IMG/VR virus record: IMGVR_UViG_3300027374_000252
DNA from: an uncultured virus (IMG/VR IMGVR_UViG_3300027374_000252)
Lineage: Duplodnaviria > Heunggongvirae > Uroviricota > Caudoviricetes
Strand: one strand, 5' to 3'
DNA length: 20,000 nucleotides
Positions 5,503 to 18,800 of the stretch are shown here, piece by piece. The notes under the pieces were generated by a model. That model ran no database searches, was not told where the DNA came from, and worked only from the letters and a program-made list of their open reading frames with translations. Both the position numbers and the translations under genes were made by a program. Position 1 is the stretch's first letter; the number at the start of each line of letters is the position of its first letter.

Positions 5503-6949
5503 CTTCCGAACCTCCCATAAACATTGTTACCAATTCGTTGAAGTACATTTCATCCTGCGGAATATCGTCACTTGCCGCCATGATTTGATTGGCGATTGAC
5601 TTCTTCTTGTGGATGATGGAATATAGAACATGGTCAATGGTATTGCGACCAAGCAGATAATAGCACGTCACATTATCTTTCTGCCCTATGCGGTGTGCCC
5701 TGTCCTCGCACTGGCAGCAGTCGGCATACGTCCATGGAAATTCCACAAACGCAACATTGGACGATGCCGTGAGGGTAAGACCGACACCTGCCGCCTTGAT
5801 GGAGCAGACTATGAGTTGTGCATGACCATTCTGAAAAGAGTCCACAGCCGCCTGTTTCTCCACAAGGGAATCACGTCCGGTCACGCTTACAGCCTTGGGG
5901 AATGCTTTTTTCAGAGCATCCACAATCTCATGATAGGAGCAGAACAGTATGAGGGGTTTGCCATTGGCGAGAAAGGTATTGACAAAATCGACAGCCTGCC
6001 GAACCTTGCCCTTTGCTGACAATGACCGGAGTGTCATGAATTTGACGAGAGCCTCCATGCGCATCTTGCGGCGAATTTCCACATCGGTGCATCCGGTGTA
6101 CTTCTCAAGATATTCACGGAGGTCAGCGGCGGCAGTGTCATATACCGTGCGGCTTTCGGGGTCAAGTTCGACATATAGGTCTGTGCGTGTCTTTTCGGGA
6201 AGTTCCGTAAGTACAGACTTCTTTTCACGGCGGATCATGCAATTATCGTAGAGCTTGGCTGACAAGTCGGCAAGTGCTTCGGCTTGTTCTTCCTCCTGGT
6301 CTTTGCCAAATGAGCAATAATCAGAGAGGAACTTGCCACGTCCTCCGAAGTCATCGGCAAGACGTTCCATAATGGAGAGCTGCGCCACCAAATCTTCAGG
6401 ACGATTAACGACAGGGGTGCCGGACAGCAGGGCTATATACCGTTTGCCGGAGCATATACCCTTTGTGAAAATCGTCTGTTGTGCGCCGGGGTCTTTGACC
6501 CGGTGTGACTCGTCTATGATTACAGATTTGAATAACTTGATGCAGGACGAAAATACCACGTCTTTTAACCGGAACGAGCCATTGGTTTTAATGTCCCATA
6601 CAAAGTATTTACGAAGCGACTCAAAATTGACAATGGCAACTTGGTACATTCCCATGCTCAACAGATACGGGAATGTGGAACGGGTTGCGTTGTCAAGTAC
6701 AAGAGCCTTAACATCAGCAAACTTTTCAAACTCTCTCTGCCAATTTATCTTTAGCGAAGAAGGGCAGATAACAAGGCATGGGTAGGCACGGGCGCAATCG
6801 ACAACACCGATACTCTGCAATGTTTTACCCAATCCCGGCTCATCACCTATGAGGAAGCGTTTCTTCCGAAGACCGAAAAGAATACCCTCCTGCTGGTACT
6901 CGTATGGAGTGACTTTCAGATTATGTTTCAATGCTTCCATAGGTCTCAT
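5489..6949 (-). CDS. SNF2-family (SF2) helicase/ATPase
   Basis: Q motif PYEYQ, Walker A DEPGLGKT, DESH, LSGTP, motif V AAGVGLTL, motif VI QCEDRAHRIGQ. Confidence 0.95.
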   Translation of the reverse strand: MRPMEALKHNLKVTPYEYQQEGILFGLRKKRFLIGDEPGLGKTLQSIGVVDCARAYPCLVICPSSLKINWQREFEKFADVKALVLDNATRSTFPYLLSMGMYQVAIVNFESLRKYFVWDIKTNGSFRLKDVVFSSCIKLFKSVIIDESHRVKDPGAQQTIFTKGICSGKRYIALLSGTPVVNRPEDLVAQLSIMERLADDFGGRGKFLSDYCSFGKDQEEEQAEALADLSAKLYDNCMIRREKKSVLTELPEKTRTDLYVELDPESRTVYDTAAADLREYLEKYTGCTDVEIRRKMRMEALVKFMTLRSLSAKGKVRQAVDFVNTFLANGKPLILFCSYHEIVDALKKAFPKAVSVTGRDSLVEKQAAVDSFQNGHAQLIVCSIKAAGVGLTLTASSNVAFVEFPWTYADCCQCEDRAHRIGQKDNVTCYYLLGRNTIDHVLYSIIHKKKSIANQIMAASDDIPQDEMYFNELVTMFMGGSEDGGG

Positions 6950-7833
6950 ACAAGATTAACTTGAGGTTGATTTGCGGCTGCGCTCGGCAAAGCCGGAGCA
7001 AGCTCCACTTTGCTCTTGCTGGCACACAAATTAACTTGAGGTTGATTTGCGGCTGCGCTCGGCAAAGCCGGAGCAAGCTCCACTTTGCTCTCGCTGGCAC
7101 ACAAATTAACTTGAGGTTGATTTGCGGCTGCGCTCGGCAAAGCCGGAGCAAGCTCCACTTTGCTCTCGCTGGCACACAAATTCAGGCACCAATACTGAAA
7201 GGCCAACTCTTCATACTTTTCACGCCCGGCATTATAGATGGCATCGCCACGAGTGATTTGCTTCTTGAATACCATACTGTTCTTTTTGCTGATGGCATAT
7301 ATAAAGTCCCGGTCAGAATGAGCAATATCCATATACCACGCACGTGAGCGGTCCCAATCGAAGAAGTCAATCATCTGCTCAAATTCCTTTTGTGAAGTGG
7401 CGGCAGTAGTTTTAAGGTCTCCACCAAAAAGCGCAGCCTCAAGCCACCAATCCCACTTGCAGCGAGTGGCAAGCGTAAAAGGAAATCCGCAATATTCAAA
7501 TTGCTGTGACTGATTGACCATGAACTTCTGTGTTGTAGCATTTTCCAACACGAAAGCGAGAAACCTGTCACTCCGTGCCTCCATGCGCAGAGATTTATAC
7601 ATTTCCTGTGCATGGCGAAACTCGTCCTCCGTGTACTGCGTATCATCAACTGTGAAGCGATAATAATTGACTCTCGCAGGTTCGGTAATTATGGCATCGA
7701 CCAAATTCCCGAAACGGAAAGCCTCCTCCCGGTTGCCGAATTGCAACCGGGGGTGAAGCAGCTCTTTGAGGGCAGTGAGGTCTGAGTTAGAGACCTCACT
7801 ACGCAGATAATATGTATCGGGATTGTTACTCAT
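6946..7833 (-). CDS. PD-(D/E)XK nuclease-like protein (RecE/DUF3799-like, probable RecT partner) with repeat-derived C-terminal extension
   Basis: VSNSDL, AFRFGNLVDA, RCKWD, GGDLKTT, AWY motifs; lies two genes downstream of recT. Confidence 0.78.
   Translation of the reverse strand: MSNNPDTYYLRSEVSNSDLTALKELLHPRLQFGNREEAFRFGNLVDAIITEPARVNYYRFTVDDTQYTEDEFRHAQEMYKSLRMEARSDRFLAFVLENATTQKFMVNQSQQFEYCGFPFTLATRCKWDWWLEAALFGGDLKTTAATSQKEFEQMIDFFDWDRSRAWYMDIAHSDRDFIYAISKKNSMVFKKQITRGDAIYNAGREKYEELAFQYWCLNLCASESKVELAPALPSAAANQPQVNLCASESKVELAPALPSAAANQPQVNLCASKSKVELAPALPSAAANQPQVNLV
6956..7180. repeat. Three tandem copies of a 75-bp palindromic unit
   Basis: Copies at 6956-7030, 7031-7105 and 7106-7180, identical except T at 7017 versus C at 7092 and 7167; no spacers. 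Confidence 0.97.
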
Positions 7834-8342
7834 ACCTTACAGATTTCTTTGAATTGAAATGTAACTTGATTAAACGTTTCGCTAATTACAGAGAATACAT
7901 AAATCTTATTATCCCAATCTGAGCAAACCTCTATATGATAGTCTTCGCTCACTAAATGAGGGTTTCCCTTTCTTCGCTCAATTACAGCTTCTTCAAGTGT
8001 CTGATATATTTTCTCTTCACTTGTGAATGTTGATGGATAGCGAATCTTGTAGTCCTCAATAAAGGGTTTCACATCGGTAAAGTTTTGTATTATGACCTCA
8101 ACCCTTCCGGATATTTTCATAATCTCCTTATCTATCCTACCAATGTACTTATTGAGCAAAGGAAGCAGGTCAGTCGGATCGATTGGAATGTTTATGTATT
8201 TTTTCTTACCCCAACCGTCAACGCAAGAATAAAACAGGGAGGCATCTTTGGTATAAATATTTATTGCCATAGCCGCCTCCTGTAATCTTGCGCGACCGTT
8301 GAAACAATCCTGTAATTCCGTTATTAATGCAGGGGTTAACAT
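7830..8342 (-). CDS. Hypothetical protein, 170 aa, AT-rich
   Basis: Overlaps both neighbouring genes by 1-4 bp. Confidence 0.78.
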   Translation of the reverse strand: MLTPALITELQDCFNGRARLQEAAMAINIYTKDASLFYSCVDGWGKKKYINIPIDPTDLLPLLNKYIGRIDKEIMKISGRVEVIIQNFTDVKPFIEDYKIRYPSTFTSEEKIYQTLEEAVIERRKGNPHLVSEDYHIEVCSDWDNKIYVFSVISETFNQVTFQFKEICKV

Positions 8343-9559
8343 TACTGTGCCTTTACGTCATCGACATATACCACGCTTCCATCACTGATGAACTCGCCGT
8401 CTTTATTGGCAACTTTCTCACAGAAGGAGATTTGCTTCTTGAATATCTTGGCAAGTTCCTCATCGGTCATACGGCTGCCCTCCTTTGCCCACCACATCAT
8501 AAGCACCTGCATATATCCGTTGGGGTTGAGTATGCGGATTTTCTTAGTGACTTTGGCTTTGGGCTGATAGGCCGGGGCGGTTGCCTGTGCGAGGTCGAAC
8601 AGCGAGGCAGCTTCGGCACCTGCTTTCTGCACTTCCTTTTTCTTGGCTTCCTCCTGCTCACGTGCGATGCGTTCAGCCTCTTTTCGGGCAAGTTCAGCCG
8701 CTTCACGTTTCTTAATTTCCTCAGCAATGCGCTTGGATTCTTCTTCAGATGCTTTGGCGGCACGTTCCAACTCAGCTTTCTTTGACGGCAGCTTGTCAAG
8801 TATTTCCTGACGGTAATCGCCTATTTCAAACTTGTATTGCTCAGCAAACTGAACGATGAGTCGGCGCATCACATCTCCACGGATGTTGCGTGACTCGTCC
8901 GGTGTGAGATTGAAAGGCATACGCACTGACGAGGGAGGACACCAATCAGCAGGAAGTTCTACGGCATATCCGGCGACAGTATCATACACTGCCTTGTAGT
9001 TGTCGAGATTAACGCTGGTGTTGAGGTCGGTCAGTTCGTTGATACGAGCCACAACAAGGTCATTGAACTTCTGCCTGTAATCATCCTCACAAGCATTGCG
9101 ATACTGTTCACGTGCCATATCTGCCTGACGTTTTGCTTCTTCAGCTCTACGCTTTGCTTCTTCCTCCTCTCGCTTCTTGGCTGCATACATATTGCGGAAC
9201 TGCTGGAGCTGATAAGGGATTGTCCCGGCTTTTGTGGGGTCTATGTCGTTTTCAAGCGCTGTAAACTCTTTACGCACTTGGTCAAACAGCTTGGTCACCG
9301 GCGAGCGTAGTTCGGTCATGGCTTTAACAGTGCGTCGAGTGCGTTCCAAGTAGGTTGCAGCGGTCTTGTCAAGTTCATCTGTCATTCCTTTTTCCTTGAT
9401 TTGCACAAGGAGGTTCTCACATGCTCTTAAGCAATTGTCATGTGAAAGCTGGTTTTTACGAAATGACTCCGGGGTGTTACGGACAATTGCGTCTACGTTG
9501 TCGGCAGATGCGGCTATTGCCAATGCCGTTGTTGTCGGTTGAATGACTTCATTACTCAT
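8342..9559 (-). CDS. Coiled-coil phage protein, 405 aa, recombination-module associated
   Basis: Long E/K/A/R-rich helical segments; directly downstream of recT. Confidence 0.82.
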   Translation of the reverse strand: MSNEVIQPTTTALAIAASADNVDAIVRNTPESFRKNQLSHDNCLRACENLLVQIKEKGMTDELDKTAATYLERTRRTVKAMTELRSPVTKLFDQVRKEFTALENDIDPTKAGTIPYQLQQFRNMYAAKKREEEEAKRRAEEAKRQADMAREQYRNACEDDYRQKFNDLVVARINELTDLNTSVNLDNYKAVYDTVAGYAVELPADWCPPSSVRMPFNLTPDESRNIRGDVMRRLIVQFAEQYKFEIGDYRQEILDKLPSKKAELERAAKASEEESKRIAEEIKKREAAELARKEAERIAREQEEAKKKEVQKAGAEAASLFDLAQATAPAYQPKAKVTKKIRILNPNGYMQVLMMWWAKEGSRMTDEELAKIFKKQISFCEKVANKDGEFISDGSVVYVDDVKAQ

Positions 9560-9579
9560 GATTGAAATATTTTAAGGTT

Positions 9580-10542
9580 TTACCATGTTCCATCATCTGA
9601 TGATGCGTCCTCTGCGGCTGGGTCAACGGTGACACCCTCGGAGTGGTCGGCAGGGGCGGAGAATGAGTCCGGCTCTTTAGGAGCTTGTGGAGTCTTGCCC
9701 ATGTTGTAATAGTCGGGCATCTGTTCTTCTTCGGGAAGGTCTGCCTCCATGACCATGCCCTTGCCGATAGGGAGTTTCGGGTAGTTCTTGAATGCGTGTT
9801 TTACACACTTGGCGATGAGGAAGCCGGGGTCAATAGTCCCATTCAGACCGGAGGTGTAGAGGTCATTAGCTTTGGCATTCTCCTTGTCTCTCCTACCTCG
9901 CTCATTCTGCTTTAGCGAGTAGTTGGCAAGACGTTGCCATGCTTCGGAGAGAATGATGGCATAATCGGTAGTACCGTCAAGACGTGTAATTTTCATGAAG
10001 CAAGCCATTGGATTGCCGGGATTATGCTTGATGTTGAGGCCATAGGTCACTTCCTTACGACCGTTGCGCTCAATGTAGCTGAACTCGTCACCCTCATATA
10101 CCACTGTAGGCGTGTCGCAATGACGGATTTGTCCGGCACGTTGGCGCAGGAGTATTTCACCGTAACCGGTGACGGAAATGTATGCACGGTTCTCCCACGC
10201 TTCGACAATTTTGCCATTTCCATCACCCTGTGATACTTTCGTGCTTCTGTTGAGGAGGTAGCACATTGCCTGTGCGCCCGGTTCAAGGGTGAGGTCTTTG
10301 ACGGCAAGGTCAACGTATGCGAGGAACACGGAGATAGGAGTGACATTCCACTTGTTCTTGTCATCGATGATGAGGCGGTTGATGAAACGTGACTCCCTTT
10401 CGGCGAATGCCTCACCGCCCTCTCCATGCACTTGGTTGTAGAGGGAGACGATGTGTTGATGCACATAGGAGTTCACGGGAACTTCCCACGGCTTCAGCGA
10501 CTGAAGTTTGCTGACTGTATCAGCGAATTTGTTTGTACTCAT
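9580..10542 (-). CDS. recT: RecT-family ssDNA annealing recombinase
   Basis: LTLEP..AMCYL, ISVTGYGE, VVYEGDEF, KCVKHAFKNYPK and acidic disordered tail. Confidence 0.85.
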   Translation of the reverse strand: MSTNKFADTVSKLQSLKPWEVPVNSYVHQHIVSLYNQVHGEGGEAFAERESRFINRLIIDDKNKWNVTPISVFLAYVDLAVKDLTLEPGAQAMCYLLNRSTKVSQGDGNGKIVEAWENRAYISVTGYGEILLRQRAGQIRHCDTPTVVYEGDEFSYIERNGRKEVTYGLNIKHNPGNPMACFMKITRLDGTTDYAIILSEAWQRLANYSLKQNERGRRDKENAKANDLYTSGLNGTIDPGFLIAKCVKHAFKNYPKLPIGKGMVMEADLPEEEQMPDYYNMGKTPQAPKEPDSFSAPADHSEGVTVDPAAEDASSDDGTW

Positions 10543-10596
10543 GACTGAGAGATTTAAATTATTAATAACTTGTTGACAACCTCCGGCTCGACTGAT

Positions 10597-10631
10597 AAAA
10601 GGGCGGCACTGCCAAGCGGCAAATGCCGCCC
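10597..10631 (-). terminator. Probable intrinsic terminator upstream of recT
   Basis: Minus strand GGGCGGCA-TTTGCC-GCTT-GGCAG-TGCCGCCC followed by TTTTAT. Confidence 0.7.
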
Positions 10632-10666
10632 ATCAATCAATCATGAGCAGGACGGATGTCCTGTTG

Positions 10667-10789
10667 TGGGAAGTGACGGACTCGAACCGTCAATCGACAG
10701 CATGGGGATGCTGTGTCGTGGCGCTTTGGTGGAAGGAGCGGTGGCCGGCGCTTGGACTCTGCGGATTCCGTTATCGCAGACTTCTTCCC
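10667..10789 (-). ncRNA. tRNA-like element B (123 nt; acceptor stem and T-arm, non-canonical interior)
   Basis: 5' GGGAAG pairs with 3' CTTCCC-A; perfect T-arm GACGG-TTCGAGT-CCGTC; internal hairpins TCTGCG/CGCAGA and CGAC-AC-AGCAT/ATGCTGTCG. Confidence 0.6.
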
Positions 10790-11003
10790 GTAGTGCCCCG
10801 GATGGTTTGGCTGCCGGGGCGATGATTTTAGGGAAAGCTCTTTGTCCGGAGCTTTGGTTTTTCGCTGTCATCGGGCGAGGGGGGCATCGCTGCTGACCCT
10901 GTTTTGCTCCGTAATTGATGGAGCGTTAATGAAGCCTAATGAATTGGAGTTTTTGCCTCTCTTGGCATGGTGTCCTCGCGGATTGGCCTTTGGTGATGTT
11001 GTG

Positions 11004-11090
11004 TGGTCCGGAGGGGATTTGAACCGCTGTCTTGTGCGTGGGGTGTCAGGGTGGGGGTGACGCACTGCTCTTCCGCTGAGCTACCGGACC
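11004..11090 (-). ncRNA. tRNA-like element A / pseudo-tRNA (87 nt) with 22-nt C-rich anticodon loop
   Basis: GGTCCGG TA GCTC-AGCGGAA-GAGC A GTGCG-[22 nt]-CGCAC AAGAC AGCGG-TTCAAAT-CCCCT CCGGACC A. Confidence 0.8.
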
Positions 11091-11162
11091 GTGTGAGCCG
11101 CCATGCGCTTCACAGCGTTGCGTGCTCGGTTGATTCACATTGAATTCATGTACCTATTGAGG

Positions 11163-11620: not shown

Positions 11621-11699
11621 ATGATTGATTGTTTAGATTTTGTTCGGTGCTCCCCCGGCCACATCGAAGTGACGCTCTGTGCTTGTCGGGGGATTTTTG

Positions 11700-11707
11700 T
11701 AGATTTG
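11700..11707 (+). promoter_or_regulatory. Bacteroidetes -7 promoter box for the plus-strand ORF at 11735
   Basis: TAGATTTG matches TAnnTTTG, 27 bp before the ATG; no clear -33 box. Confidence 0.55.
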
Positions 11708-11734
11708 CGGCGACCAAACCAAAAATTTACAAAT

Positions 11735-11980
11735 ATGATTAATCAGTTCAATCTTGATGATTTGGCTTCCAAGCTATCGAAATTACCTTGTCCGGAGTGT
11801 AGAGAAACACATTCTGTCAGATTGAAATTGGCCCATTCCTCCTCGATGGATCGTCCTGTAGTAAGTATAGGCTTCCCCGACCAAGATACATGCAACGGCT
11901 TCAAACAGAAGGCCACGGCCTTTGCCAACCGTTTCATACAATCCATGAACCTCGGGCCGTTCCCGTTTGACCGGATATAA
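11735..11980 (+). CDS. Small putative Zn-binding protein, 81 aa, antisense to the early operon
   Basis: MINQFNLDDL...CPECRETH...TC; own -7 box and A-rich leader; start reassigned to 11735. Confidence 0.68.
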   Translation: MINQFNLDDLASKLSKLPCPECRETHSVRLKLAHSSSMDRPVVSIGFPDQDTCNGFKQKATAFANRFIQSMNLGPFPFDRI

Positions 11981-12108
11981 AGCATAGCGAATCTTAACCG
12001 TTCTTTTGCTGTAGGCTTTGGCACTGGTTGGTTCCCTGCCCATGTCAAGGTCAGGGAGGTTGTGTCCAAAAGCCAGAAGCCGTAATGGGGCTGTATGTTT
12101 CTTTCCAT
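11743..12108 (-). CDS. Possible hypothetical protein; only the N-terminal part is likely genuine
   Basis: Operon-oriented ATG at 12108, but two thirds overlaps the plus-strand ORF. Confidence 0.3.
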   Translation of the reverse strand: MERNIQPHYGFWLLDTTSLTLTWAGNQPVPKPTAKERLRFAMLYIRSNGNGPRFMDCMKRLAKAVAFCLKPLHVSWSGKPILTTGRSIEEEWANFNLTECVSLHSGQGNFDSLEAKSSRLN

Positions 12109-12183
12109 GACTGTAGTCTTTAAGAGTTGGCTTTTCTTGCTTCGCTGATTGATAACACGTTCGCTTTCCTCATGATGATTTGA

Positions 12184-12462
12184 TTAGATTCTACTTATTG
12201 CTATGTGGGTGGCTGCCCGGGAGGTGATTTCGGCATTGGTGGGAACTCGCTGTCCAAGCCTCCAGGCTTCTATCTCGGATTTGCGGAAGGATATTTGTCC
12301 TTTGTCGTTTTTGTAGTGGGGAATGTCACGGTCTGCAACCATGTGACGCACTCTGCTTTCTGACTTCTTTATCAGAATGGCGACTTCTTTCACGTTGAGG
12401 ACTTCTGTGATACTCATTGAGATGAGTGCTTCGATGCGTTCAAGGCGTTGCTCGATGCTCAT
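12184..12462 (-). CDS. Excisionase-like / MerR-type HTH DNA-binding protein
   Basis: VLNVKEVAILIKKSESRVRHMV..RDIPHYK...ISFRKSEIEAW. Confidence 0.88.
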   Translation of the reverse strand: MSIEQRLERIEALISMSITEVLNVKEVAILIKKSESRVRHMVADRDIPHYKNDKGQISFRKSEIEAWRLGQRVPTNAEITSRAATHIAISRI

Positions 12463-12762: not shown

Positions 12763-12794
12763 TTTGTATTTATTATGATTGTTGACTATCTTTG
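12763..12794 (+). promoter_or_regulatory. Promoter for the repressor (lysogenic) operon
   Basis: TTTG (12763-12766), N20, TATCTTTG (12787-12794): full Bacteroidetes consensus. Confidence 0.75.
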
Positions 12795-12818
12795 CGATAG
12801 CAGTGAGCTATCATGACG

Positions 12819-12849
12819 CAAAGGTAAGAGAATGTTCTGAAAAATCAAA
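12819..12849 (-). promoter_or_regulatory. Promoter for the early lytic operon
   Basis: Minus strand TTTG (12849-12846), N19, TACCTTTG (12826-12819). Confidence 0.78.
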
Positions 12850-15850: not shown

Positions 15851-18800
15851 TCAGTCGTGGACAGGACGCACGGTAAGGCCGTAGCTGTTGTTTGAAGTGG
15901 TGCATGCGGTAGCCGGAACCAGCGTGTTCCTGTTGATGTCTTCTGCCTTGTAATGACTTTGACAAGTGGTCTGTAACGCGCCGTTGTAGTAGTATTCAAA
16001 TCGGTTGTCAATAAGATATACCATAGTCTGTTCGCCCTTTAATGAGGATGTACTCACATACGTAATCATACGAAATGCAGGATATGTCTGATCTTTCAGA
16101 GAATACTTGTCGGTGAAATCATCGGCTCGTGAGGCTGTGTATTTGGTCATTGTGCCGAATACTGTATACCGCAGGCTCATGTTGCGCATGCCGGTGGCCG
16201 GGAAGCGGATTGACCCTCCCGGATATGTTACCGTCCAGGCATGGTCGCTGAATTTTGCCGAGGTCTTGTAGTCAGCCAGTTGATATGCTTTATTTTCTGA
16301 GGCTTTGTCGGCCGACGCTGCAAGAGCCGAGAACACATAGGCCTGAGGCACATGGTAGCCCGCAGGACAGGGGTCGTAGATTGATTTGGTAACAGTCTGT
16401 TCGTTTGCTTTTTTATCTGTTGCAGCCGGATTCCACATCTGGAACATGTCACCATTATTGCCTGATATATACGAGGGTATGTTGACATCCTTATCCACTT
16501 TGTATAAGGTGTGCCAATGGTTTCTGTATTTGCTGAAAATTTTTCCGTTGCTGTCTTTGATTTTGTCATCATATTTGCTCATCACGAAGCGGTAGGGATA
16601 CTTTATTGTATAGTCGATGGTGACGCCTCTTTCTTCTCCAAGGTCCGATATGCTTGTGCCGGGTTTGTTGCGAGAGAAGTCGTACGACACCCCATCCTTG
16701 TTGTAGGCGTTGAATGTCGGCTTGTTCTCCATGCTCATCTCTGTGTAGTTCGGGCTACTGGTATCGATATTGTATATGTCGGTCTTGTCGTTGTATATGC
16801 CGCCGAGCATCGGGTCTTTGCGGCCCCATTGGTAGTAGGTGTTGTCGCCGCCGAGCGATCCTTTGAACTCGGCTTGTGTGAATGGCGTTGTGGTGCAGTC
16901 GATTTTCTTGTCAGAGGCTTTGCCATCCTTGTAGATATAAAACGAGTTGCATGCCACGGGCGCGCTGCTACCTGTGATTTTGCTACAGTCGAGCCTGAAG
17001 CGTATCCTTATCTTGCGAGAGTCGTTGCCGTTGTGTGGGTCGCAGTATCCGAGATTGCAGGCGGTCAGATAATATGTATTGCCGGTTGGGGTAGAGGATG
17101 TGCCGCTTCCGGTTCGCGATTCCAGTTTGTGGCACGCCGCTTTGCCCTGTACCATCCATTCGTCGCGGTGCTGTGTGACCCATATGTGCCAGCTCCACAC
17201 TATCTCGCCTGCAGGATCGCGTGCCACGAGCAGCGCGTTGCCCTGGGTGATTGAGTGTTTGCGCACGCGGAATCGTATCCATTTCAGTCCGGCTATTGGT
17301 TGATTTTTGTCGAGTATCTCTACTTCGTCGATGAGGTCGGGCGCGTCCTGCCAGGCGAGCACGGCATCATTTATGTCGGACGCTGCAGGTGCCGGCGATG
17401 ATATCTGCCGGCATTTGTAGTCGACAAAATAGGTCATACCCGGGGATGTGGTGTTTTGGTTGACGGTGTAGGCCGCGGGGTTGTTGTAGGCGTTGCCGTA
17501 GACTATCGGGAAGCAGTAGTAGCCGGGTTGGTCCACGAGGTAGCAGTTGGCGGTCTCCCCCTTGGTATCGTCGAGCAGATTGTGGGGATTCTCGCGGGTG
17601 CCCTTGCATGTGGCTCTCTTGGTCAGTGTGCCGCTCAGGGTGGTGAAGTCGGACTGCGGGGCCAGGGCGAATGTGCCCTTGTAGAGGGTAAATCCGTCGG
17701 GCGATTCGTGCCATTCCACCATGCGCTGTGCGGTTCCCGAGGCCGAAGCTGTGGCGTCGGATGCGGGGTCGGGGTCGTAGACTGCCGGGGTTGATTCCCA
17801 CGATGTGCCTCCGTCGAGAGAGTATTCGATGTCGGGACGCGGCAGCTCGATATACTGGATGCCATTGACTCCGTTCTGTGTCACAGCCACATATGCCTTG
17901 ATTTCAGAGTCGTGCCATGTGCCTGAGTAGGGGAGCACATCGGTGGCGGGGTCTTTGCTGAATAGAACAGTCGGGGTGATGTGGATGCTCGACGGCGACA
18001 GCGAGTAGGTGACAACCTTGCCTGCAGGCCATGTCTTTCCGGCCAAGGATGCCGATAGGGTGCGGGCGGTGCCTGTAAGGTCGTCGGTGAATTTTATGGT
18101 CAGTCGTGCTCCCTCGGGGAGGGTCTGGGGTATGAGCAGCATGGTGAGGTCGCCGGTCTCGCCGGTGATTTCGGTCTTGTCGGGTATGTCGCCGATTATC
18201 TCGCCCTTTTTGTTGCCGGTGTCGCCTGCGGGCTTATAGCCCGAGTTGCTCTCTTCGGGCGACAGGGTGAGGTCGCGTGTCACCTTGTAGGTGGCCTTGG
18301 CATCGGTAGGCACCCACGTTCCTCCTGCGGGAGTGGGGGTGAATGTTCCTGAGCCGTACACTCCGCTTATTTCCACGTCGGTGATTTTGCCGGGGAGCAT
18401 GTCGGATGCGGCCACAATCTTTACGGCGGTGAGGGCGTGGCGGAAGTTGAGCGTCACGTCGGGAGATGTGGCGTCGGTGCATGCGGCCATTATGTCGGTC
18501 TGCTTTTTGACGTCGGTGGGTACGGTATATGTTATCTTCGGTGAGCCTGGCTGTGTGGAGGATGAGAGGATGAATGCACCGGCTGCGTCAGATTGTGAAT
18601 TTTCGGCGATAGGGGCAAAGGCGAAGAAGCGGACTTTGCCGCCTGCGGGCCATTGCAGGGTGGTGCCGTCGGCTGTGGAGCCGTTGACGGTGTAGGTGAG
18701 GTTGTAGGCGAAGTCGGGAGTCCATGTTATGTCGGCTTCGTCGGAGGGGTATTCTCCGGGGTAGCATATGGCGCTTAGGGAGAATGATGACACCGACTTG

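What the first reader, a model, noticed from the sequence alone, without database searches (positions are those of the whole stretch)
10597..11135. Structured non-coding leader with two tRNA mimics and a hairpin array ahead of a terminator and recT
Seen: about 540 nt with no convincing ORF inside an otherwise gene-dense operon. On the minus strand it reads: hairpin (CGCT-GTGA-AGCG within a GAGC/GCTC stem), tRNA-like A, a run of hairpins (TCC-GCGA-GGA, TGCC/GGCA, GCTCC/GGAGC, GCA-GCGA-TGC, AAAGCTC/GAGCTTT), GCCCCGG/CCGGGGC hairpin, tRNA-like B, terminator. Three loops are GNRA on the transcribed strand. Each tRNA mimic is preceded 4-5 nt upstream by a hairpin. I see no TAnnTTTG promoter between the terminator and recT, and no recognisable N-like antiterminator. 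Known: HK022 put RNAs antiterminate without a protein, and tRNA-like structures direct RNase P/Z cleavage. Inference: an RNA-based control device gating the delayed-early genes, or a precursor that releases small functional RNAs.
Basis: partly seen in the sequence, partly recalled or inferred. Interest (0 to 1): 0.78.

Follow-up and report, generated by a model that had tools for sequence, protein, structure and literature searches.

The report
Phage tRNA-spaced antisense RNA cassette
A gut-bacterium prophage appears to use anticodon-less tRNA look-alikes as cut marks to release a small RNA that blocks the start codons of its own early recombination genes; this is predicted from sequence comparison and has not been tested in the lab.

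Summary
The structures are real. Minus-strand 11162-10586 lies in the early operon of a Bacteroidales (Muribaculaceae-like) prophage, with no canonical promoter of its own. It holds two tRNA-like elements with intact acceptor and T arms but no usable anticodon. Such elements are common upstream of recT in relatives (93 sense, 9 antisense hits in 70 loci), with compensatory changes. The 18 nt between tRNA-like B and the terminator are antisense to the start codons of recT, the gene after it and the xis-like HTH gene, the three best of 27 window starts. Seed and targets change together across clades, and mismatches favour G-U pairs. The units resemble host FopS sRNAs, but a FopS-like model does not hit the window. 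Best model: host RNase P and 3' trimming cut at the tRNA mimics and release a ~70-nt antisense RNA that damps early genes, working like P1 c4 or P4 CI RNA. Processing, expression and function are inferred, not shown. No support was found for put-like antitermination.

The parts
12819..12826 (-). Bacteroidota -7 promoter box; the only canonical promoter upstream of the cassette on its strand (faces the cI promoter box at 12787-12794, + strand)
   Evidence: consensus from PMC7366714
12456..12470 (-). predicted target 1: start region of the xis-like HTH gene (12184-12462)
   Evidence: duplex -20.0 kcal/mol; HTH_17 and phrog_66
11128..11162 (-). AU-rich linker S1, possible seed of the first unit; no target established
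11095..11127 (-). hairpin H1 with GUGA tetraloop and internal loop, nearly identical in 7 relatives; FopS/GibS-like loop but no U-tract, ends 4 nt before tRNA-like A
11004..11090 (-). tRNA-like A: acceptor, D and T arms intact; 20-nt loop replaces the anticodon loop; no encoded CCA tail
10790..11003 (-). variable hairpin cassette between the two tRNA mimics (two GCGA-loop hairpins and four others); absent from close relatives L004 and the X7 contig; pieces recur in L011, L014, L105, L109; no target found
10667..10789 (-). tRNA-like B: acceptor stem and canonical T arm with three inner hairpins, 123 nt
   Evidence: z -2.51
10650..10661 (-). 4-bp hairpin at the 5' end of the predicted sRNA
10632..10649 (-). 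seed S4, antisense to the start regions of recT, ORF 9559 and ORF 12462
10597..10631 (-). intrinsic terminator-like hairpin with a short (4 U) tract; probably leaky
   Evidence: z -3.88; not called by the generic scan
10586..10596 (-). post-terminator segment complementary to the seed; can mask it in read-through RNA
10536..10550 (-). predicted target 2: recT start region (recT 9580-10542)
   Evidence: duplex -21.4 kcal/mol; PF03837, phrog_148
9553..9567 (-). predicted target 3: start region of the 405-aa gene after recT (8342-9559)
   Evidence: duplex -19.6 kcal/mol

Best explanation
The region is a polycistronic small-RNA cassette inside the phage early transcript. Transcription starts at the cro promoter (about 12810) and much of it stops at the leaky terminator at 10631-10597. 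Host RNase P cuts at the 5' end of each tRNA mimic, and tRNA 3'-processing enzymes cut after it. The mimics act as punctuation, not as decoding tRNAs. This frees a ~70-nt RNA (about 10666-10595: small hairpin, seed, terminator). It pairs across the start codons of the xis-like HTH gene, recT and the gene after recT, and lowers their translation. In read-through RNA the seed can instead pair with the segment just after the U-tract, which frees the recT start. The likely purpose is to damp or time excision and recombination genes, for example against leaky expression in the lysogen. Shown: structures, conservation, complementarity, covariation. Inferred: cleavage, sRNA accumulation, repression, physiological role. 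My odds by step: antisense pairing 0.8, release by tRNA-processing enzymes 0.65, damping role 0.45.
For: (1) tRNA-like descriptor: 93 sense, 9 antisense and 2 downstream-coding hits in 70 loci. Only 5 of 68 well-scoring elements have a canonical anticodon arm and 13 of 68 encode CCA. In 25 aligned elements the acceptor is 99.4%, D 100% and T 99.2% paired, with two-sided changes in 7 of 7 acceptor and 4 of 5 T pairs. L076, L088 and L094 lack the anticodon arm altogether. Bacterial RNase P tolerates extensive truncation (PMC4919922). (2) The seed's three best partners among 27 window gene starts are recT, 12462 and 9559; the next is -14.4. Among 522 host ORF starts only 4, 5 and 7 bind as well. 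A 13-nt target pattern occurs once in the 3.3-Mb G001, antisense within a gene, and at two gene starts in the 29-kb phage record. (3) In 27 loci, own recT start -17.8 vs others -15.1; partner gene -18.6 vs -15.4, n=24. Clade-specific seeds match several gene starts of the same phage, e.g. L024, L029, L072, L073. (4) G-U-compatible transitions outnumber A-C ones 59 to 13 (41 to 11 without the last column, my count). Four loci change the anti-AUG so that pairing survives but the opposite-strand ATG is lost. (5) recT and partner starts share 6.75 of 10 flanking bases in 20 loci with the seed, and 3.6 in 30 binned as without. (6) A tRNA mimic ends within 60 nt before the seed in 23 of 27 loci. (7) No own promoter. 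G001 has RNase P RNA and an RNase Z-like gene. (8) The host uses the same logic: FopS sRNAs block start codons (PMC11697453).
Against: There is no direct evidence of cleavage, strand-specific expression or repression; one search gave contigs only. Seeds were located with a pattern that already demands an anti-ATG, and the 29 loci were hand-picked from the 68, so the shuffle test is partly circular. Loci are related: the seed label changes only 5 times on the RecT tree (quick tree). The own recT start ranked first for only 3 of 27 seeds. At group level the own group was best in 3 of 6, second in 2 and poor in 1. T-rich start regions could inflate the G-U count. 42 of 69 distinct RecT loci lack the seed unit, yet many keep a tRNA mimic about 40 nt before recT, so the mimic has a role that does not need the sRNA. 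No convincing target was found for S1 or the middle cassette. With one promoter making both sRNA and mRNA, what lifts repression in lytic growth is unexplained. The RNase Z match is below its curated cut-off.
Confidence: 0.6

Rival explanations
1. Cis-only switch: the seed folds back on the recT start, or on the post-terminator segment, within one transcript, perhaps making an RNase III site as in lambda sib (recalled). No trans-acting RNA.
For: Equilibrium folding splits the seed between the recT start (14 of 27 loci) and the post-terminator segment (13 of 27). The post-terminator complement is conserved.
Against: It does not explain the same signature at genes 1-2.9 kb away, upstream and downstream, changing with the seed by clade.
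Confidence: 0.15
2. The tRNA mimics are themselves the product: decoys for tRNA-targeting defence nucleases or tRNA-sensing proteins, or 5' stabilisers of the recT mRNA.
For: Mimics persist right before recT without any seed unit (L019, L043, L056, L074-L076, L088). Several phages carry 3-4 of them, with large variable inserts. An inner hairpin in the anticodon arm co-varies (helix 4).
Against: The anticodon loop, the usual nuclease target, is the least conserved part and is sometimes absent, and most lack encoded CCA. It does not explain the seed. It is not exclusive with the best model.
Confidence: 0.13
3. Antitermination signal: put-like RNA, or boxA/boxB-like sites (the seed as boxA, GNRA hairpins as boxB) for a phage or host factor that drives read-through into recT.
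For: H1 is conserved in sequence beyond what pairing needs. A terminator precedes recT with no internal promoter. The seed loosely resembles boxA (recalled).
Against: The seed differs at 4 or more of 12 positions from anything in the G001 rRNA leader and spacer (a gapped partial likeness remains). It co-varies with gene starts. Similar hairpin loops occur in host FopS-like terminators. No N-like family was found among the small ORFs tested.
Confidence: 0.08
4. Decayed tRNA genes and neutral hairpins in a recombination-prone moron region.
For: A few true tRNAs (Gln, Leu, Thr) occur at these positions, and the cassette is patchy.
Against: Compensatory changes in acceptor and T stems alongside anticodon loss, fixed position before recT, strand bias and seed covariation.
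Confidence: 0.04

Closest known systems
P1/P7 c4 antisense RNA and P4 CI RNA
   Same: A phage regulatory RNA cut from a precursor by host RNase P (PMC5499578 passage). That they act on their own operon and co-vary with their targets is recalled.
   Different: There the sRNA itself is the RNase P substrate and lacks a T loop. Here a separate full-elbow tRNA mimic is the cut mark and the seed targets Bacteroidota start regions of several genes. No Rfam hit except tRNA.
FopS/GibS (R1) sRNAs of Bacteroides thetaiotaomicron
   Same: Single-stranded anti-start-codon seed followed by a hairpin; blocks translation initiation. Host FopS-like loci have GUGA/GCGA-type loops like the phage units. Relative L031 carries a near-FopS seed (E 0.003).
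   Different: FopS have their own promoters, strong U-tracts and host susC targets. The window units lack promoters, have a different seed and are not hit by a FopS-like model. No RRM protein was found in G001.
tRNA-like punctuation (mascRNA/menRNA, plant mitochondrial t-elements)
   Same: Non-decoding tRNA-like structures cut by RNase P and RNase Z to define the ends of neighbouring RNAs (PMC4919922).
   Different: Eukaryotic or organellar; not described as spacers of antisense sRNA arrays in phages in the searches run here.
Theta ribozymes
   Same: tRNA-adjacent RNA processing in gut Bacteroidota phages (PMC10879173).
   Different: No HDV-like fold was found in the leader by my descriptor, and there is no G within 5 nt of either mimic's 3' end.
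HK022 put RNA
   Same: Structured RNA ahead of a terminator in an early operon (recalled).
   Different: No Rfam match; the conserved features point to processing and antisense pairing.

Membership tests
decoding tRNA | acceptor stem, D arm, T arm | tested here: met
   A. B: acceptor and T arm present, D arm atypical.
decoding tRNA | 5-bp anticodon stem with 7-nt loop | tested here: not met
   A has a 20-nt loop, B has none; 5 of 68 elements canonical.
decoding tRNA | aminoacylation | not testable with these tools
   needs experiment
FopS sRNA | R1' seed sequence / family model match | tested here: not met
   Model R1 from 13 host FopS-like loci gives no hit in the leader.
FopS sRNA | single-stranded anti-start-codon 5' part plus 3' hairpin | tested here: met
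FopS sRNA | own sigma-ABfr promoter | tested here: not met
   (non-canonical promoters not excluded)
FopS sRNA | RbpB (RRM) binding | tested here: inconclusive
   No PF00076 in G001 or G002; G001 is only the nearest genome; binding not testable.
c4 / CI antisense RNA | Rfam family match | tested here: not met
c4 / CI antisense RNA | complementarity to, and covariation with, sites in own operon | tested here: met
c4 / CI antisense RNA | maturation by RNase P | not testable with these tools
   substrate shape and host enzyme present; cleavage not shown
theta ribozyme | HDV-like nested pseudoknot starting within 5 nt of a tRNA 3' end | tested here: not met
   (home-made descriptor, no positive control)
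put / nut antitermination site | boxA likeness to host rRNA operon motif | tested here: inconclusive
   4 or more mismatches in 12 nt, partial gapped likeness
put / nut antitermination site | increases read-through of downstream terminators | not testable with these tools
   needs reporter assay

The most novel reading that the evidence does not exclude
Bacteroidales temperate phages carry natural, modular 'tRNA-spacer' guide arrays. Anticodon-less tRNA scaffolds let host RNase P/Z cut one early transcript into several FopS-like antisense RNAs with exchangeable seeds. The last one polices the phage's own early genes through a clade-specific start-codon signature, which could also act as RNA-based immunity against related superinfecting phages. 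The others silence host or competitor mRNAs.
Probability: 0.35. Interest if true: 0.88.

Novelty: new variant of a known kind. Interest (0 to 1): 0.74.

Why it matters
RNA control in Bacteroidota phages is barely described, and many odd 'tRNAs' annotated in these genomes may be processing signals instead. The finding gives a short RNA, three named targets and natural compensatory variants, so it can be tested directly. It links host FopS-type sRNAs to phages, which the FopS paper suggested as carriers. It would also offer a native way to express several sRNAs from one promoter in gut Bacteroidales.

Tried and rejected
Rfam found only tRNA in the window and in 23 related loci (one weak tmRNA fragment at E 0.52). 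A BLAST of the leader against the phage collection gave 8 short tRNA-like matches only, and G001 has no match. RNA runs (4 of 24 laid, contigs only): X2 and X3 cover 10666-11059 but also flanking genes. Contigs of one study stop or start at 10662-10669, near the 3' end of mimic B. The X7 variant joins at the same point, so this may be a graph branch; it is not used as evidence. Small-ORF reading: four overlapping ORFs have no Pfam match, L003 has a 29-nt insertion in the one crossing A, and the opposite-strand ATG is lost in 5 of 27 loci. Target prediction for S1, S3 and the C-rich loops against window, G002 and 760 kb of G001 gave no convincing start-region target; the rest of G001 was not examined. 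A seed pattern scan of viral contigs gave 15 stretches: 4 known loci and 11 in unrelated contexts without the terminator. The H1 pattern gave 3 known loci only. The HDV descriptor gave nothing. The generic sigma-70/terminator scan was uninformative. Earlier scan findings: none. Literature searches that found no description of this arrangement. The candidate-RNA models in the supplements of PMC10690425, and the FopS alignment figure and supplementary PDF of PMC11697453, were not seen and may contain parts of it.

Full report
Context. The window holds the early region of a temperate phage: a cI-like repressor on the + strand, and cro-like, xis-like HTH, recT, a 405-aa gene, exonuclease VIII and a helicase on the - strand. 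The closest named RecT relatives are from Muribaculaceae and other Bacteroidales. No genome is held for the window; G001 is the nearest genome and G002 the nearest virus record. The only minus-strand TAnnTTTG box between 13300 and recT is at 12826, so the cassette is probably part of the cro transcript (consensus from passages of PMC7366714).

Observation. Element A scores as tRNA but has a 20-nt loop where the anticodon loop should be. Element B keeps an acceptor stem and a canonical T arm around three inner hairpins.

The tRNA mimics are a family. Loci were collected with RecT as bait. A descriptor for acceptor plus T arm gave 93 hits on the sense strand upstream of recT, 9 on the antisense strand and 2 in downstream coding DNA, in 70 de-duplicated loci. 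Of the 68 that passed a stricter score, 5 have a canonical anticodon arm and 13 encode CCA (the classifier is strict). In 25 aligned elements the acceptor, D and T helices are 99-100% paired, with two-sided changes in 7 of 7 acceptor and 4 of 5 T pairs. The anticodon stem scores 66%, partly through misalignment. Three loci have lost the anticodon arm. This pattern fits selection for an RNase P substrate, since bacterial RNase P tolerates extensive truncation (passage of PMC4919922). G001 has RNase P RNA and an RNase Z-like gene just under its cut-off. Cleavage is inferred.

The seed. The 18 nt before the terminator are the reverse complement of a start-codon region. Among 27 window gene starts the best partners are recT (-21.4), the xis-like gene (-20.0) and ORF 9559 (-19.6); the next is -14.4. 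Against 522 ORFs of at least 200 aa from 760 kb of G001, taking the best ATG within 120 nt of each, only 4, 5 and 7 bind as well. A 13-nt target pattern occurs once in G001, antisense inside a gene. It occurs four times in G002: the seed itself, the two gene starts, and one opposite-strand site I place by offset inside a coding region. I hand-picked 29 of the 68 loci as having a terminator-like hairpin; 27 carried a seed anchor 86-123 nt before recT. In 26 of 27, at most 2 of 200 shuffles bound as well, but the anchor pattern demands an anti-ATG, so this test is partly circular. Less circular are these. Own vs other recT starts: -17.8 vs -15.1. Own vs other partner-gene starts: -18.6 vs -15.4, n=24. 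Clade-specific seeds match up to four gene starts in the same phage. G-U-compatible transitions outnumber A-C ones 59 to 13, or 41 to 11 without the last column. recT and partner starts are more alike where the seed exists: 6.75 of 10 in 20 loci vs 3.6 in 30, one of which, L001, was mis-binned and kept. Against: the own start ranked first for only 3 of 27 seeds, the own group was best in 3 of 6 groups, and the label changes only 5 times on a quick RecT tree, 27 of 69 rows, so the effective sample is small.

Masking. A second complement of the seed follows the U-tract in most loci. Folding splits the seed between it and the recT start, 13 vs 14 loci. It is made first, so it may capture the seed in read-through RNA, while the terminated RNA has a free seed. 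This is inference.

The GNRA hairpins. Hairpins with G[C/U/G]GA loops number 60 on the sense strand, 1 antisense and 1 downstream in 69 loci. Their 5' linkers (57 distinct) are enriched in TCAT (26 vs 12.8 expected) and AGGT[T/A] (20 vs 4.3); plain CAT and ATG do not discriminate. FopS sRNAs of B. thetaiotaomicron consist of a single-stranded seed and a terminator hairpin, block translation next to start codons, and were noted in a phage (PMC11697453: abstract, six sections and supplement hits read; figures and the large supplement not seen). The FopS 5' motif occurs in 10 of 151 Bacteroidales genomes, G001 included. Most of those 18 loci have a promoter box, the AGGTTA motif and a hairpin with the same kind of loop. 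A model built from 13 of them hits relative L031 (E 0.003) but not the window leader. The window units work like FopS at most; they are not members. G001 shows no RRM protein. No target was established for the upstream units.

Mechanism. The early transcript is cut at the mimics; a mimic ends within 60 nt of the seed in 23 of 27 loci. The last piece, about 70 nt, represses the xis-like gene, recT and its neighbour. The likely effect is a threshold or delay on excision and recombination functions. What lifts it in lytic growth is open. Many Bacteroides-type relatives keep only a mimic about 40 nt before recT, so mRNA processing or stabilisation is probably a second role. RNA-seq contigs were uninformative.

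Comparison and novelty. The nearest working analogues are P1/P7 c4 and P4 CI RNAs, RNase P substrates according to a passage of PMC5499578. The original paper was not held, and their mode of action is recalled. tRNA-like punctuation is known from mascRNA and t-elements. Theta ribozymes (passages) were not found. Passages of PMC10690425 mention five tRNA-like phage candidates without this context. Passages of PMC5737381 and bioRxiv 10.64898/2026.09.22.753630 describe other prophage RNAs. Searches found no description of tRNA-mimic-spaced antisense cassettes before recT. Verdict: a real, conserved, apparently undescribed variant of processed phage antisense control, with strong comparative support for the pairing and no experimental support yet.

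Noticed in passing
L020, L021, L024, L027, L029, L032, L042, L050, L109; about 300-700 nt upstream of recT, directly after a tRNA-like element: A second conserved ~190-nt RNA-like motif with apparent compensatory stems, flanked by tRNA mimics. No Rfam match in the loci scanned. Absent from the window leader. It may be another cargo of the cassette.
   Followed up: no
L069:3191-3295, L072:3356-3468, L050:3201-3326: tRNA scaffolds whose anticodon arm holds long AU-rich inserts, some reading like anti-start-region sequence; possible natural tRNA-scaffold guides.
   Followed up: no
window 11625-12180: A moron insertion with an 81-aa + strand ORF (11735-11980) and its own promoter box at 11700; skipped in the X2 contig. 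No Pfam or PHROG match.
   Followed up: partly
window 12787-12826: The cI and early promoter boxes face each other and their transcripts would overlap by a few nt; the likely cI start is 12899 (my reading), not 12779.
   Followed up: partly
window 6949-7175: The exonuclease VIII ORF ends in three tandem copies of a ~26-codon repeat overlapping the helicase start; a real repeat or an assembly artefact.
   Followed up: no
G001:C1:3053718-3053734 (L121) and L114-L122: FopS-like sRNA genes occur outside Bacteroidaceae: 10 of 151 Bacteroidales genomes from several families, including G001, which shows no RRM protein.
   Followed up: partly
L031, L072, L073 upstream regions: A recurring short motif: a CATCACC-type run, a small GC hairpin and an A-rich tail right after GNRA hairpins; also seen at window 10998-10950.
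   Followed up: no
window 18249-18338 (+): An ARAGORN tRNA-Thr call inside the antisense of a long ORF, with no Rfam support; probably spurious.
   Followed up: no
L099 and L110: One metagenome contig carries two RecT copies 100% identical to the window's, about 61 kb apart.
   Followed up: no
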